DNA of 64,000 nt from the NCBI RefSeq assembly GCF_009914755.1, contig NC_060933.1; one strand, 5' to 3'. Shown piece by piece: positions 28,005 to 38,293 of this stretch (its first letter is position 1; each line of letters opens with the position of its first letter). A program made the translations under genes and the position numbers. The notes below the pieces were generated by a model. The model did no database searches. It saw only the letters and a list, made by a program, of their open reading frames with translations, and was not told the origin of the DNA. Origin of the DNA: the human T2T-CHM13v2.0 reference genome, Homo sapiens.

Positions 28005-31000
28005 ATGACAGCTTTTAAAATAGTCATCTTTCTAAATTGCCCTGCTGTTTCCACTTTCTCATAGGTATCTGTTTCCATTTTGTTTCTTCAGTTTCATTGG
28101 CTTGTCTCTATTTTTTCCAATACAAAGCTATCTTAATTAATTTATTTTCATCATAAATTGTAAGGTCCAGTAGATAATTTCTCTTATGTTATTACTGCAT
28201 GAGAGTGTCTTTGGTTTTCTTTGGTGTGAGGTTTATTTTTTCATATTAATTTTGCATCAGCTTATGAAGGACATTAGGAAATCTGGTTGAGGTTTTGGCT
28301 GGAATTAACATTGACAATTTGGGTGGAATTGATATTTTTTATGATTTCAACTTTTCCTATTGATATTTGCAGTATAAATCTCCATTTATTTGCTTTTATT
28401 TTTTTTCTCTTATGAATAAGTTCACCTTTAAAATGGTGAAACCATAGTATTCATCTCCCAGGGTAGGTTAAATTTCTTACAATAGTGAGGGGACTATAAA
28501 ATACTTTTTATCTTTGGTGAAATTTACCCCTAAGTTCATAGCATTTGAGTTTGCTATTGAAAAATTTGTTATTTATATTTTTAATTTAACAATTACACAT
28601 TTTTTTTAAACCAGTTAATCACCAAGTATGCTAATCCTAAATTACATTTTCTCTCCTCACTGATGTGTGTGTCCCCTCTGTAAGACACCATGTGGATATA
28701 AATGCTAAGTATGATTATGGGCCTCTGGTCTTTTCCTGTGAGCTACTTTGTCTCTCACTGTGCCTATACCACTGTCTTGATGAGTCTGGCTTTCAAAAAC
28801 CTTGATTGGTAGTAAGGCACGTGCTCCAAATGTGTTTGTTTCTTTTACAGATATTTTTGAGTTTTCTTACCTCTCTTTTTTTCAAATATATGTGAAAATC
28901 TGGCTATCGATGTCCTCACTCAACCTAGTGGATATTTTAAGTGGAAAAATATTGTATATAGAGAGCATATTGAAGTGTGAGATGCTTCATGTATGGAACT
29001 ATCTTATGCATGAACATAGACCTGATTAAGTTATGTGCATTGACAGGTTGGAAAGATGCATTTAAGATTTAAGAACAATCAATGACTTCCTCTGTTTCCA
29101 CTAGAGTCCCCACAAAATTCAAACACATTAGGGGAAAAACATAGATGAAGTCCAAAATATTTTTAAAAATAGCTCACAGATAATGACTCATAGGACAAAA
29201 CATTTAGGGTTGGAGCTCAGCCAGCTTTAAGTTCTCAGAGCTTAAAGGGTCAGGGTCACTAGCTCAAACCTGAGGCCCCTAATCAGCCTGGCACCTGTCC
29301 TAAGGTTGGAATGGGCTGATACTTTGCACTGGACACTCTTGTTCCCTGAGAGATGCCCACTTTGCTCTACTTGCCTCATTTGTTCTAATAAGATCCTATA
29401 CTGGTGATGTCAGCAGGTGTCTGATACAAGGAAATATGGTGTATGGAGTGGGAGAGGTGAAGAGTAGTGAGGTAGTGATTTCATGGTGTGGGATACATTA
29501 GGACCAACCCACTTAGAAAAAAATGGCTTTCGCAACAATTTTTTACCACTAATGCCCTTGGCAAAAACATCCTTAAGAACAATTGCCCTTAGCACCAACA
29601 CCTTTAAAAATATGCCTATCACAACAATGACTTGTTAATAATGGCCCTTAGCAACAAATCCCATAGCAACAATAACCTTAGCATAGACACCATCAGGAAT
29701 AATGCTTTAAGACAACATTGTTAATATTAACCCTTTTAGCCAAAAGACTCTTGGCAACATAATCTAAGCAACAGTAACATTAGAAAAATGCCCTCAGCTA
29801 TAACACTATTTGCCACAGTTGCTCTTAGCAACACCTTTGACTGACATTAACACTCCTAGAAGCAATATCTTACATTAGCAATCATGGACCTTAACAACCA
29901 CCCCAAACAACAATGACCTTAGCAACAAATAGCTTGAAATGAATACCTTTACCAAAATGTCCTTTAAAAAAATGGCCTTTAGCATCAAGACCCTTAACAA
30001 AAATGGCCCTTAGGAACAATGACCCTAGAGACAACACTCATAACATAACAACAATGGCCCCTAACAACAATGTCCTTAGCAGCAACATCATTAGCAATGG
30101 TGCACCTTACTGACAAATCTCTAAGCAACAACAGCCTTAGCATAATTGCCTGTAGAAATAGTGGGAATTATGCGAATTGCAACAATGCCATTGGCAACAA
30201 TGTCTTTAAAATCAATGTCCATAGCAACAATGCCCTTAGGAACAATGGTATGTCCATTTACCTCTATAAATTGCCATGGTACTTTGGAAATGGGCAAACC
30301 ATGGCCTGTTAGTGTATCTTAGCAAAAATACCCTTAGAAATAATACCTTCAAAAACCATGGCCCTTAGCAATAACAAAATTAGAAATAAAGCAATTAGCA
30401 ACAATGCCCTTACAAAAATGTCCTTTATAGTGGCATTAACAACAGCACTCTTACCAATGGCACCTTAGTAAAAATGCTTTTAGTATCAACTCCTTAGCAA
30501 TAATGACATCAGCAACAGTGTTGTTGGTAACAGCACACTTTACAGCAATGCCCTAGCTACAAAATACATAATATCAATGAACTTAGCAACAATGGCTCCT
30601 GGAGAAATGCTCTGAATGGTAATACTCATAGAATCAACACTCTTAACATCAGTACCATTAGCAAGAAAGGGGTAAACAACTGACCTTAGAAATGACATTC
30701 TTAATAATGTCCTTAGTAAAAAAATCATGCGCATCACCCCTATAACCAGTGCCCTTAGCAACAGTGCTCTTATCCAAACTTGCCTTACCAAGAGTTTACC
30801 ATTGTTTACCTTATAAACAATGGCCCTTAGCAACCACACTCTTTGCAACAATGTCCTAACAATATTACTATTAGCAAAAATCCCCTAAGACCAGCATTCT
30901 TGACAACAGCCCTCTTGGCCCTTAGAAGCAATGACTTTAGCAACCAACAGTGAGCCATAAAAATAAAGCCTTGGTAATAATGCTGTTAGCATTGACCTTA

Positions 31001-31589
31001 GTAAAATGGTCTTAGCAACAGTCTTTAGCAAGAGTGACTCTAGAAATGTCCCCTTCCCAACAATGCCCTTTGAAGAAAATACCTGTAACAACAATGCCTT
31101 TAGTCACAATGCCTTCAGCAAAAATGTCCCTTGCCAACATTAACACCCTAGGAACAATGATCTTAGAAACAGTGTCCTTAACAATAATATACAAAAACAT
31201 TCTAAGCAATAGTACCCTAAGCAACAACATACTTAGCAGTAATACCCTCAGTAACAATACTCTTAGCAACACGAGATTTAGGATCAGTGCTGGTAGAAAC
31301 AGCATCATGAGAAACACTAGCAATAGTAATAATGCCTTTAGCCACAATGACCTTCAACAGTTCTCTTATGAACATCACCCATAACTACAATGGCTCCAGG
31401 AACAATGCACTTAGAAATAACTTCCTTAGCAACAGTGACCTTACTATCGATGCCAATTGAAATATCGCCCTTAGGCACGTGTTCCATGGCAGCAACATCA
31501 TTAGTAACCACAGCTTTTGTAACAATGACTTTTAGCAAAAACATTAGCATAGTGCCTTAACAAAGGCCCTTAGAAACAATGCAACTACA

Positions 31590-31907
31590 GGCCGGGCAAC
31601 GTGGCTCATGCCTGTAATCCCAAGCACATTGGGAGGCTGAGGTGGGTGGATCACTTGATGTCAGGAGTTTGAGACCAGCCTGGCCAACATGATGAAACCC
31701 CATCTCTACCAAAAATACAAGAATTAGCTGAGCATGGTGGTGCACGCCTGTAATCCCAGCTACTCGGGAGGCTGAGGCAGGAGAATCACTTGAACCCGGG
31801 AGGCAGAGGTTGCAGTGAGCTGAGATCATGCCACCACACTCCAGCCTGGGCAACAGAGGGAGAATCCATCTAAAAAAAAAAAAAAAAAAAAGAAAAGAAA
31901 AGAAAAA
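31590..31907 (+). mobile_element. AluS inserted in the 15-bp array
   Basis: TSD agaaacaatgcaacta/agaaacaacgcaatta. Confidence 0.95.
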
Positions 31908-33109
31908 AGAAACAACGCAATTATCATCAATTCCCTTAGCAACGGATCCTTTAGAACATAATGCTCTTAACAACAGCACCCTTAGCAACAACATCCTTGA
32001 CAACAGTGTACTTAGCAACAGTGCCTTTAGCTAAAATGGCCTTTGGTAAAATCAACTTTAGCAACAATGCCCTTATAAAAGATGCCCCTTGTAACAGTGT
32101 CCTTAGCCAGAATCCCTTTAGGAACAATGCCTTTACCAAAATGTATTTGCAACAATGTCCTTAGCAAGAGTCCTTTTGTAACAATACTCTTAGAAACAAT
32201 GCTCTTACTAACATTCCCTTAGGAACAACACTGTCGGTGACATTAATGCTCTTAGCAACAATGACCCTTGAAATAATGCCCTTCAAACAATGTCCTTAGA
32301 AACAATTGTACTTAGACACAATGACCTTTCATAACAAATGCCCTTAATAACAACCCCGTCAGCAACAATGCCCTTAGCCTCAGTTCCTTGAGTAACAGTG
32401 CTATTAGCAGTAAACCCTTAGGTAAGATGCCTTTACCACAGTGCTTTCAGTAATAACGTGTTTAACTTCAACACCCTTAGAAACAATGTTCTTAGCAAAA
32501 ATGGCCCTTAGCAACAAAGCTCTTATGGATTCACTAAGAAACAGTCCCCTTAGCAACAGTGCCTTTAGCAATAATCACTTTAGCAACAAGACACTTTACA
32601 AAAGTGCCTTGCAATAATGTACCTAACATCAACATTCTTAGCCATAATGAGTTGTAGTAAAAATTATCTAAACGTATTTCTAGCATCAGGGCCCTTAACA
32701 TCAAAACTCTTAGATTTAACGACTATAACAATAATATCTTTAACACAGTTCCTTCGTAACAGCCCCTAACAATAGTCTTGGGAACAATGCCTTTACTAAA
32801 ATGCATTTAAGTTAAACGGCCTTAGCAGCACTGTCCTTGGCAATATTAGATCTTAGTGGCAATGCTCTCAGCAGCAGTGGTACTCAGCAATGATTTCTCT
32901 TACAACACCCTTAACAACAATACCCATAACAGCAGCACACTTTAAAAAACAGGCTTAGCAACAATGTCCTTAACATCAATGCCTTTTGGAACATCAACCT
33001 CAGCGACAGTTGCACTTACTAAGAGTGCCTTTGGCATCAGTCCCCTTAGCAATACCACCATTCAAACAAATACCCCTTAGCCAAAATGATTCTAATAACG
33101 GCACACTTT

Positions 33110-37246: not shown

Positions 37247-38002
37247 ATTCTCTTAACAAAAAGGCAACAATTTCCTTAGCAATAATAAACTTAGAAATAA
37301 TGCCTTCTCAACAATGACTTTGCCAACAGTGGCCATAGCAGCCATACCCTCAGCAAAAGCAACTTAGTGCAGATTTCTTAGCAAAGCACGCCAAAACACA
37401 CTAACAAACATACTAAGAAAACACAAAACACACTAATACTAACAAAGAAAGTGCCTTTCTAAAAACTGCCTATCAACAATCTTATCAACACATTTCATAG
37501 CAAAAATTTCCTTAGCACCTTTGCCCCTAGCAATGTTGCCTTTAGCAACAGTTTTTGTGGCAGTAGTGACCATCCAACCTTGATTTAGCAAATGCATCCT
37601 TAGCAAAAACTTTCTTGCAACACCACCCTTAATACTAACACCTTTAAGAGCGATGTCTTTAGCATAAGGGCCCTCCCAACAATATCATTAGCAAAAACTT
37701 GGCAAAATGTGCTTAGCAACCGCACTCTTTGAAAAAGTTCCATTAATAGCAACATACTTAATAACAATGTCTTTAGCAACGGTGGTCATAGGAATTGCTC
37801 CTTCTGCAAGAGTGGCTACTGTAATTGTGGCCAGAGCAATAATGGCCATATCAGCCATGCATTTAGCTACAGTGGCAGTAACAACTATGTCCTTGGTGGC
37901 AGTATGTGTGGGGAACATTTCTTAGCAACAACACCCTTATCTAAGAGGCACTAGGAGCAAAATCCATTGCAACACTATATGCAGCAACAATGTCCTTAAT
38001 TA

Positions 38003-38078
38003 TTAGGTTGATGCAAAGGTGATTGCGATTTTTGCCATTTCAGTGGCAAAAACCGCAATCACCTTTGTACCAACCTAA
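38003..38078. mobile_element. MADE1 (Hsmar1 mariner MITE)
   Basis: Near-perfect palindrome ttaggttgatgcaaaggtgattgcg...cgcaatcacctttgtaccaacctaa, flanked by TA on both sides. Confidence 0.92.
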
Positions 38079-38293
38079 TACAATTCCCTTGGCGACAATC
38101 TTCTTAGCAACAACACCCTTGGCAACAAAACTCTTAGCAATATCCTTAGAAACATTGTCTTTAGCAACATTTCTTAGCAATGGTGCCCATAGCAACAGTT
38201 CCTTAGTAACAGCAACCTTAGAAGAAACCCCCTTTGCAAGAGCACATTTAACATCACTGCCTTTAATGAAAAACCACTTAATAAAGAAGTCCT

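What the first reader, a model, noticed from the sequence alone, without database searches (positions are those of the whole stretch)
29505..38292. Cryptic ~8.8 kb ancient 15-bp tandem array downstream of ZNF658
Seen: between ~29.5 and 38.3 kb, all non-transposon sequence is a head-to-tail repeat with a ~15-bp period (consensus ~CTTAGCAACAATGCC). It has one orientation and is A/C-rich and G-poor on the + strand. Subtracting ~2.4 kb of insertions leaves ~6.4 kb, roughly 400+ units by my estimate. Neighbouring units are almost never identical, yet the (C/T)TTAGCAAC core and the period persist while the other 5-6 bases vary freely. It matches no human satellite I recognise (alpha, beta, gamma, HSat1-3, SST1, CER, MSR1). 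Inference: this is an unhomogenised fossil, or a motif-constrained array that standard annotation could largely miss.
Basis: partly seen in the sequence, partly recalled or inferred. Interest (0 to 1): 0.9.

Follow-up and report, generated by a model that had tools for sequence, protein, structure and literature searches.

The report
Decayed 15-bp minisatellite fossil near ZNF658
This is a real but very worn-out stretch of about 430 head-to-tail copies of a 15-base unit that appears to be decaying without function, and that routine repeat masking largely overlooks.

Summary
Window 29505-38292 contains 6397 bp of a single-orientation 15-bp tandem array, about 430 units, interrupted by 2391 bp of transposon insertions. 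The lag-15 match is 0.459 against 0.276 in shuffles (z=31).

The units average 70% identity to the consensus CTTAGCAACAATGCC. No two neighbouring units are identical, and unit-to-unit identity does not change with distance. This is a star-like, unhomogenised fossil.

The "conserved core" does not need selection:
- A/T positions are kept at about 0.8 and C/G positions at about 0.6.
- Positions 12-13 carry a CpG-decay signature.
- A neutral simulation using the local mutation spectrum reproduces positions 1-10 within 0.05.
- Recent non-CpG differences among the four chr9 paralogous copies are equally frequent inside the array (1.67%) and outside it (1.68%).

Only the four segmental-duplication copies on chr9 carry the array. 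I found no coding signal. RefSeq soft-masking skips the array, and TRF catches 14-20% of it.

I could not check Dfam, the T2T repeat tables or other mammals. The verdict is an ordinary neutral relic that is unusually large and old, and of low to moderate interest.

The parts
29505..31590 (+). Array segment 1 (15-bp units). Its left edge abuts sequence found only in the four chr9 copies.
   Evidence: left flank 28010-29504 matches only the 4 chr9 copies
31596..31912 (+). Alu-like insertion with a poly-A tail and an approximately 11-bp target-site duplication. The name Alu is recalled, not tested.
31913..33100 (+). Array segment 2. It contains the 660-bp stretch (32138-32797) that is missing from two paralogs.
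33101..33402 (-). Alu-like insertion in reverse orientation, with an approximately 13-bp target-site duplication.
33403..34763 (+). Array segment 3.
34764..35463 (+). Alu-like insertion that is itself interrupted at about 34927-35279 by an LTR-like element. The MaLR/THE1-type name is recalled. The target-site duplication is AATGCCTTT.
35464..35730 (+). Array segment 4.
35731..36140 (.). High-copy interspersed repeat (MaLR-type LTR by recall). The best non-paralogous copies are 75-79% identical.
   Evidence: at least 7225 first-look candidates, 40 scored
36141..36310 (+). Array segment 5.
36311..36626 (+). Diverged Alu-like insertion with a long poly-A tail.
36627..36999 (+). Array segment 6. 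In two paralogs a Gnomon lncRNA first exon starts in the equivalent stretch.
37000..37245 (+). Fragment of a high-copy interspersed repeat (3' part of an MLT1-type LTR by recall). The best non-paralogous copies are 72-84% identical.
   Evidence: at least 3000 first-look candidates, 40 scored
37246..37990 (+). Array segment 7, more decayed than the others.
37996..38081 (.). Short element with inverted-repeat ends (MADE1-like by recall), flanked by TA.
38086..38292 (+). Array segment 8, the right end of the array.
38293..38930 (.). Right boundary: an Alu-like element (to about 38574) followed by another high-copy interspersed repeat. No array sequence lies beyond it.

Best explanation
This is the relic of one old minisatellite. 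A 15-bp unit, most likely CTTAGCAACAACGCC with one CpG, was amplified head-to-tail by replication slippage or unequal exchange into an array of at least 6.4 kb at a single locus. Homogenisation then stopped.

Since then each unit has accumulated point mutations and small indels independently and neutrally. Seven transposon insertions have split the array. The whole locus was later copied three more times with the ZNF658/SPATA31A/FAM74A segmental duplication on chr9.

The apparent conserved core is a mutation-bias effect. A/T positions decay about half as fast as C/G positions, and the CpG at positions 12-13 has decayed to TG or CA. The array has no demonstrable present function. Its only observed activity is occasional in-register unequal exchange, seen as a 660-bp (44-unit) deletion in two copies.

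Shown: the array, its star-like structure, the CpG signature, the neutral recent rate, the single locus, and insertion of transposons into an existing array. Inferred: the amplification mechanism, initial homogeneity, and the age.
For: - Period 15 is strong (z = 31).
- There are 443 units with mean identity 0.698 to the consensus, and none is identical to its neighbour.
- Unit-to-unit identity is flat from 1 to 300 units apart (0.54-0.58). It equals independent draws from the profile (0.562 against 0.552). No distance stands out (maximum z = 2.4 of 400 tested).
- Positions 12-13 are non-independent: TG 161 (117 expected under independence), CA 75 (38), TA 53 (90), CG 6 (49). All 14 other adjacent pairs fit independence. 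TG and CA units are not clustered.
- A neutral simulation started from a homogeneous array, using the substitution spectrum measured on the local paralogs. It gives r = 0.82 with the observed profile and matches positions 1-10 within 0.05.
- Differences among the four paralogs at non-CpG sites are 93 of 5579 (1.67%) in the array and 56 of 3342 (1.68%) outside it.
- Target-site duplications around three Alu-like inserts are made of array sequence.
- Two inserted interspersed repeats are at best 72-84% identical to other copies, so the array is older than they are.
- The left flank is unique to the four copies.
- Only four chr9 loci carry the array. Ten pattern hits on other chromosomes show no lag-15 signal.
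- The 660-bp deletion lies between two near-identical stretches of about 30 bp that are in register.
Against: - Some residual signals are not explained by the simple model. Positional heterogeneity of recent differences remains at p = 0.043 after controlling for base class.
- Recent changes go toward the consensus more often than expected: 18 against 10.5, p = 0.039.
- Consensus-matching A/T sites vary less (15 of 2378) than non-consensus A/T sites (19 of 1116, p = 0.005) and less than flank A/T sites (24 of 1838, p = 0.03).
- TG outnumbers CA by 2.1 to 1, where symmetric CpG decay predicts 1 to 1.
- Positions 11 and 14 are more variable than simulated.
- If the array began homogeneous, the implied divergence is about 0.34 substitutions per non-CpG site. 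That is roughly twice what the inserted LTR-like elements suggest, so the array may have been heterogeneous from the start.
- No orthologue from another species could be examined.
Confidence: 0.8

Rival explanations
1. Motif-constrained functional array. The units are kept because the TTAGCAAC core or the AACAAT(G) sub-motif is bound by a protein or RNA, for example as a cluster of SOX-type sites. Selection or biased conversion then keeps restoring the motif. The resemblance to a SOX-type site is recalled, not tested.
For: - There is a weak excess of recent changes toward the consensus: 18 against 10.5 expected, p = 0.039.
- Consensus A/T sites are less variable than non-consensus ones (p = 0.005).
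- Positions 7 and 10 show 1 of 385 and 2 of 382 recent differences, where 4.9 and 6.9 were expected.
- AACAAT occurs 61 times against 7.6 in shuffles. This follows from the unit itself.
Against: - Overall non-CpG divergence is identical inside and outside the array (1.67% against 1.68%).
- The low counts at positions 7 and 10 are not significant once their post-hoc choice is allowed for (p = 0.14).
- The neutral simulation reproduces the core frequencies.
- Only 24 exact 9-mer cores and 34 exact 8-mer cores survive in about 430 units.
- About 305 indel positions break the register.
- RefSeq lists no enhancer, silencer or other functional element in the array.
Confidence: 0.07
2. Relic of a protein-coding repeat. 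A 15-bp unit equals five codons, so the array could be a dead giant exon. It would have encoded pentapeptide repeats: (A-L-S-N-N)n on the + strand or (I-V-A-K-G)n on the - strand.
For: - The unit length is a multiple of three.
- Match fractions at lags 3, 6, 9 and 12 are raised (z = 5.3, 1.9, 2.5, 4.3).
- Four of the five triplets follow a purine-any-pyrimidine pattern (read from the consensus).
- One ORF gives a very weak Pentapeptide_4 match (E = 0.15, 12.6 bits against a cut-off of 38).
Against: - The longest ORF overlapping the array on either strand is 153 aa, and most of it lies in an Alu-like insert; the longest largely within array sequence are 116-121 aa.
- 0 of 10 ORFs reach a Pfam cut-off.
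- The word search for homologues found no candidate for the 116-aa ORF, although 3 sample-only candidates were left out before scoring.
- The Atlas feature scores are 0.76-0.77, below the chance range the tool quotes.
- There is no wobble pattern. In the + frame the mean consensus frequencies at first, second and third codon positions are 0.74, 0.67 and 0.67. In the - frame the third positions are the best conserved (computed from the profile).
- About 305 indel positions occur in 6.4 kb.
- The searches cover two ORFs only and cannot exclude a very old origin.
Confidence: 0.04
3. An already catalogued repeat. The array is a known Dfam or T2T satellite or simple-repeat entry, or the internal tandem region of a known transposon, and only looks unannotated here.
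For: [quoted passage not shown] I saw this in passages of the bioRxiv version, but their identities are in supplementary tables that I could not open.
Against: - RefSeq soft-masking leaves the array unmasked in all four copies. The masked bases (1601-1759 per copy) lie in the insertions.
- The left flank is single-locus, and no other array was found in the genome. It is therefore not part of a dispersed element.
- Full-text searches for ZNF658 with "tandem repeat" (3 papers, none relevant by title or abstract) and for a 12-base string of the unit (4 papers, all unrelated) found nothing.
Confidence: 0.15

Closest known systems
Decayed (ancient) minisatellite / degenerate tandem repeat, the class targeted by tools such as ULTRA and tantan
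   Same: It has head-to-tail units of 10-100 bp in one orientation at one locus. The pattern is blurred by substitutions and indels until TRF-type tools see only patches. The ULTRA paper describes exactly this class and the difficulty of annotating it (passages read, PMC11580682).
   Different: It is unusually long for so decayed an array: 6.4 kb and about 430 units at about 70% identity to the consensus. It shows no residual local homogeneity at all. It is also present in four segmental-duplication copies.
Polymorphic human minisatellites (VNTRs)
   Same: The unit size is in the same range. There is evidence of in-register unequal exchange: a 660-bp deletion, exactly 44 units, in two paralogs.
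   Different: Active VNTRs have highly similar units and variable copy number. Here neighbouring units are only 56% identical and no two are the same. Copy-number polymorphism in people was not testable.
Named human satellite families (alpha, beta, gamma, HSat1-3, SST1, CER, MSR1, SATR1 and others)
   Same: It is tandem organisation of kilobase scale.
   Different: Those families are multi-locus, usually (peri)centromeric or subtelomeric, and homogenised. This unit occurs at one ancestral locus only.
Pentapeptide-repeat proteins (Pfam PF00805 / PF13599)
   Same: A 15-bp period corresponds to five residues.
   Different: There is no significant profile match (E = 0.15), no long ORF and no codon-position signature.

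Membership tests
Minisatellite (tandem repeat, unit 10-100 bp) | Head-to-tail repetition of one unit in one orientation, above chance | tested here: met
   Lag-15 match is 0.459 against 0.276, z = 30.8. The wraparound alignment gives 443 units on one strand.
Minisatellite (tandem repeat, unit 10-100 bp) | Locus-specific rather than dispersed with a mobile element | tested here: met
   Only the four chr9 segmental-duplication copies carry it. The left flank is unique to them. Sensitivity to short or very decayed arrays elsewhere is limited.
Minisatellite (tandem repeat, unit 10-100 bp) | Copy-number change by unequal exchange or slippage | tested here: met
   Two paralogs carry a deletion of exactly 660 bp (44 x 15) between in-register near-identical stretches of about 30 bp. 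Polymorphism among people was not testable.
Homogenised satellite DNA | Neighbouring units more alike than distant ones, or a higher-order repeat | tested here: not met
   Identity is 0.563 at distance 1 and 0.562 for all pairs. No distance out of 400 stands out, with a maximum z of 2.4.
Known Dfam / T2T satellite family | Match to a curated family consensus | not testable with these tools
   No Dfam or RepeatMasker tool was available. RefSeq soft-masking leaves the array unmasked.
Sequence under purifying selection (motif-constrained array) | Substitution rate below that of neighbouring neutral DNA | tested here: not met
   Non-CpG differences among paralogs are 93 of 5579 in the array and 56 of 3342 outside it, Fisher p = 1.0.
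Sequence under purifying selection (motif-constrained array) | Core positions substitute more slowly than variable positions, beyond mutation bias | tested here: inconclusive
   Core positions 1-9 show 58 differences in 3388 sites and positions 10-15 show 51 in 2250 (p = 0.14). Residual heterogeneity after base-class control has p = 0.043. Only 109 variable columns were available, and all are from recent human paralogs.
Pentapeptide-repeat coding sequence (Pfam PF13599 / PF00805) | Profile match above the curated cut-off, and an open frame | tested here: not met
   The best match is 12.6 bits against a cut-off of 38, in 1 of 10 ORFs. The longest ORFs lying largely within array sequence are 116-121 aa; a 153-aa ORF lies mostly in an Alu-like insert.
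Structured RNA family (Rfam) | Match at gathering score | tested here: not met
   0 matches over window 28500-39500 on both strands.

The most novel reading that the evidence does not exclude
The array is among the oldest neutral tandem arrays still recognisable in the human genome. It would be pre-eutherian, with about 0.34 substitutions per non-CpG site if it began homogeneous. It has stayed recognisable because a slow restoring process still nudges units back toward the TTAGCAAC-containing consensus. That process would be in-register biased conversion between units, or weak selection for the motif. The weak excess of recent changes toward the consensus (18 against 10.5 expected) and the lower variability of consensus-matching A/T sites would be its footprint.
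Probability: 0.08. Interest if true: 0.6.

Novelty: new member of a known kind. Interest (0 to 1): 0.25.

Why it matters
There are two practical points.

First, 6.4 kb of clearly repetitive DNA, present four times on chr9, escapes RefSeq soft-masking and most of TRF. It is a good test case for detectors of decayed repeats, and a possible source of spurious low-complexity alignments.

Second, about 430 units descended from one 15-mer act as parallel replicates of the same sequence context. Their decay profile displays mutation bias and CpG loss unusually cleanly. With orthologues, the array could serve as a small natural calibration set for context-dependent mutation.

Nothing here points to a biological function.

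Tried and rejected
Other arrays elsewhere in the genome.
- A BLAST-type search with 1188 bp of array found only the four chr9 copies and their out-of-register self-matches.
- A two-unit pattern with at most 1 mismatch gave 20 hits in the four arrays and 10 elsewhere. None of the 10 loci elsewhere shows a lag-15 signal: z is at most 2.6, against 8.4-8.9 in the arrays.
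- A three-unit pattern with at most 3 mismatches gave 164 hits, most of them in the four arrays. 99 of the 164 were listed.
- The tool's reversed-pattern control gave 8 hits, but it contains CpGs and is therefore too low. My own uniform-composition estimate of chance hits is about 50.
- A cluster on chr7 proved to be an unrelated, younger 15-bp minisatellite.
- A six-frame protein search with a 116-aa ORF found only the four copies.

Coding origin. This was rejected on ORFs, Pfam, the Atlas (scores 0.76-0.77), the homologue search (blank, with 3 sample-only candidates left out) and the lack of a wobble pattern.

Structured RNA. Rfam found nothing.

Higher-order structure or internal segmental duplication. 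None was found.

Two unit subfamilies (TG type and CA type) as an alternative to CpG decay. The two types are randomly interspersed. One cannot turn into the other without a CG or TA intermediate, so CpG decay is preferred. The 2:1 excess of TG remains unexplained.

Literature.
- ZNF658 with "tandem repeat" gave 3 papers, seen in the listing only, none about this array.
- A 12-base string of the unit gave 4 unrelated papers.
- A search for "ancient minisatellite" was badly set (any term allowed) and returned nothing useful, with 0 occurrences of that phrase among the 10 papers listed.
- For the ULTRA paper I read passages.
- For the T2T repeat preprint I read passages only; its supplementary tables were not seen.

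Transposon names. Alu, MaLR/THE1/MLT1 and MADE1 are recalled from the look of the sequences. They were not tested against a library.

Dating. The ages rest on recalled substitution rates and are rough.

Full report
WHAT IS THERE

Reading the sequence shows a head-to-tail repeat of about 15 bases between window 29505 and 38292. The repeat runs in one orientation throughout. It is broken by recognisable insertions:
- four Alu-like elements, one of which carries an LTR-like element inside it;
- two further LTR-like pieces;
- one short element with inverted-repeat ends.

These element names are recalled from the look of the sequences and were not tested against a library.

With the insertions removed, 6397 bp remain out of a span of 8788 bp, so 2391 bp are inserted. 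The match fraction at lag 15 is 0.459, against 0.276 in 200 first-order Markov resamplings (z = 30.8). Lags 30, 45 and 60 give weaker echoes. A sliding scan of the whole window places the signal at 29.4-34.9 kb and 35.3-38.4 kb. The only other peak, at 42.6-43.4 kb, is a purine-rich tract. Composition is A 2303, T 1683, C 1554, G 857.

ANATOMY

A wraparound profile alignment converged on the consensus CTTAGCAACAATGCC. It matched 6308 bases, with 89 inserted bases and 216 deleted unit positions. This gives 443 units, of which 403 have at least 13 of 15 positions and 307 are complete. Mean identity to the consensus is 0.698. No unit equals the consensus and no two adjacent complete units are identical.

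Unit-to-unit identity does not depend on distance. It is 0.563 for neighbours, between 0.544 and 0.576 at the distances sampled from 2 to 300 units, and 0.562 over all pairs. Independent draws from the position profile give 0.552. None of 400 distances stands out (maximum z = 2.4), and no long internal duplication was found. The units therefore relate to each other as a star. They share one ancestor and have changed independently since.

THE "CORE"

The consensus frequencies for positions 1 to 15 are: C 0.67, T 0.80, T 0.87, A 0.80, G 0.64, C 0.62, A 0.89, A 0.77, C 0.61, A 0.88, A 0.65, T 0.65, G 0.48, C 0.51, C 0.61.

The split is by base rather than by core against tail. Every C or G position lies between 0.48 and 0.67. 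A and T positions lie mostly between 0.77 and 0.89.

Positions 12 and 13 are the only adjacent pair that is not independent. TG occurs 161 times (117 expected), CA 75 (38), TA 53 (90) and CG 6 (49). That is the pattern left by a methylated CpG decaying to TG or CA. The ancestral unit therefore most likely read ...AACGCC at its end.

I measured a substitution spectrum from the four local paralogs (136 polarised changes over 9203 sites). I then simulated neutral decay of a homogeneous array of that ancestral unit. At the best-fitting time the predicted profile correlates with the observed one at r = 0.82. Positions 1-10 are each reproduced within 0.05. The misfits are positions 11 and 14, which vary more than predicted, and an excess of TG over CA. 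None of these is extra conservation.

IS IT UNDER CONSTRAINT NOW?

The genome holds four copies of the array, all on chr9: the window at 78.7 Mb, and copies at 39.42, 41.19 and 43.78 Mb. They are 98.6-99.2% identical over about 9.8 kb.

Among columns present in at least three copies, 109 of 5638 array sites and 88 of 3467 non-array sites vary. Leaving CpG sites aside, the figures are 93 of 5579 (1.67%) and 56 of 3342 (1.68%). The array as a whole has therefore changed at the same rate as the transposons and flanks around it.

Recent differences are uneven across unit positions (p = 0.006). They anticorrelate with long-term conservation (rho = -0.76). Most of this disappears once sites are classed as A/T, C/G or CpG (p = 0.043). 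The low counts at positions 7 and 10 are not significant after allowing for their post-hoc choice (p = 0.14). The high count at position 14 is marginal (p = 0.03).

Two small signals remain.
- Consensus-matching A/T sites vary less than non-consensus ones (15 of 2378 against 19 of 1116, p = 0.005).
- Changes toward the consensus are somewhat more frequent than the spectrum predicts (18 against 10.5, overall p = 0.039).

These could reflect occasional in-register conversion between units, sequence-context effects, weak selection or chance. With about 70 polarised events I cannot tell which.

Only 24 exact CTTAGCAAC and 34 exact TTAGCAAC motifs survive. That argues against maintenance of the motif.

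ORIGIN, AGE AND SURROUNDINGS

The left flank (28010-29504) occurs only in the four copies. The array is therefore not the inside of a dispersed element.

The right end abuts an Alu-like element and another high-copy repeat. No array sequence follows them.

The target-site duplications of three Alu-like inserts are made of array sequence, so the array was there first.

Two LTR-like inserts belong to families with thousands of copies. Their best non-paralogous matches are 75-79% and 72-84% identical. This points to insertions tens of millions of years old, using recalled neutral rates.

The array's own decay corresponds to about 0.34 substitutions per non-CpG site if it began homogeneous. That is roughly twice the decay of those inserts and would place the array before the eutherian radiation. 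Alternatively it was never fully homogeneous. No orthologue could be examined here, so the age is inferred.

Two paralogs lack exactly 660 bp (44 units). The deletion lies between two in-register, near-identical stretches of about 30 bp. Unequal exchange can therefore still occur.

RefSeq lists no gene or functional element in the window's array. In two paralogs a Gnomon lncRNA model starts in the distal array and the adjoining LTR fragment.

WAS IT EVER CODING, OR AN RNA?

Fifteen bases are five codons, and there is a period-3 undertone. Several results argue against a coding origin, though:
- The longest ORFs lying largely within array sequence are 116-121 aa; a 153-aa ORF lies mostly in an Alu-like insert.
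- None of 10 ORFs reaches a Pfam cut-off. The best is Pentapeptide_4 at E = 0.15.
- The homologue word search was blank for a 116-aa ORF, with 3 sample-only candidates left out.
- Atlas feature scores were 0.76-0.77 for a 76-aa ORF, within the range the tool quotes for chance.
- There is no third-position relaxation in any frame.

Rfam found nothing.

ANNOTATION AND NOVELTY

RefSeq soft-masking covers only the insertions in all four copies. TRF covers 13.9% of the array at score 50 or more and 20.3% at score 30 or more, in patches.

Full-text searches found no paper on this array. The T2T repeat preprint reports new interstitial satellites sent to Dfam, but it names them in supplementary tables that I could not open. 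Prior annotation therefore cannot be excluded.

Decayed tandem repeats are a recognised class (ULTRA paper, passages read).

VERDICT

This is a real, large, old and unhomogenised 15-bp minisatellite relic that is decaying neutrally. The fossil reading is supported and the motif-constraint reading is not. It is a new or unlisted member of a known kind, of low to moderate interest.

Noticed in passing
window 32138-32797: Exactly 660 bp (44 units) are absent from the 41.19-Mb and 43.78-Mb paralogs. The breakpoints lie in two in-register, near-identical stretches of about 30 bp (32118-32150 and 32778-32810). This looks like unequal exchange within the array.
   Followed up: yes
window 33976-33996: A 21-bp indel is present in the window and the 39.42-Mb copy and absent from the other two. 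The extra bases form an inverted repeat with the adjacent sequence, which suggests a templated hairpin-type insertion.
   Followed up: partly
window about 36716-37171 (by equivalence to chr9:41197023-41197478 and 43783661-43784029): In two paralogs, Gnomon lncRNA models (LOC124906839 and LOC112268036) have their first exon in the distal array plus the adjoining LTR-like fragment. No such model is annotated in the window's copy.
   Followed up: partly
window 42670-42840: A purine-rich (GA/GGA-type) low-complexity tract produced a spurious lag-15 peak in the window-wide scan.
   Followed up: yes
L046 1453-2195 (chr7:837,952-838,694): This is an unrelated, younger 15-bp minisatellite of about 52 copies with higher-order periods of 144 and 300 bp. 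The three-unit pattern search picked it up only because it shares an AGCAAC word.
   Followed up: partly
window 38575-38930: The GC-rich stretch just right of the array is a high-copy interspersed repeat (at least 6749 first-look candidates, 80-87% identical copies). RefSeq soft-masking leaves it unmasked at the 100-bp level.
   Followed up: partly
unit positions 12-13 across window 29505-38292: TG outnumbers CA about 2.1 to 1 (161 to 75), although symmetric CpG decay predicts equality. The two types are randomly interspersed. The cause is unexplained; it could be strand-biased deamination or a mixed ancestral array.
   Followed up: partly
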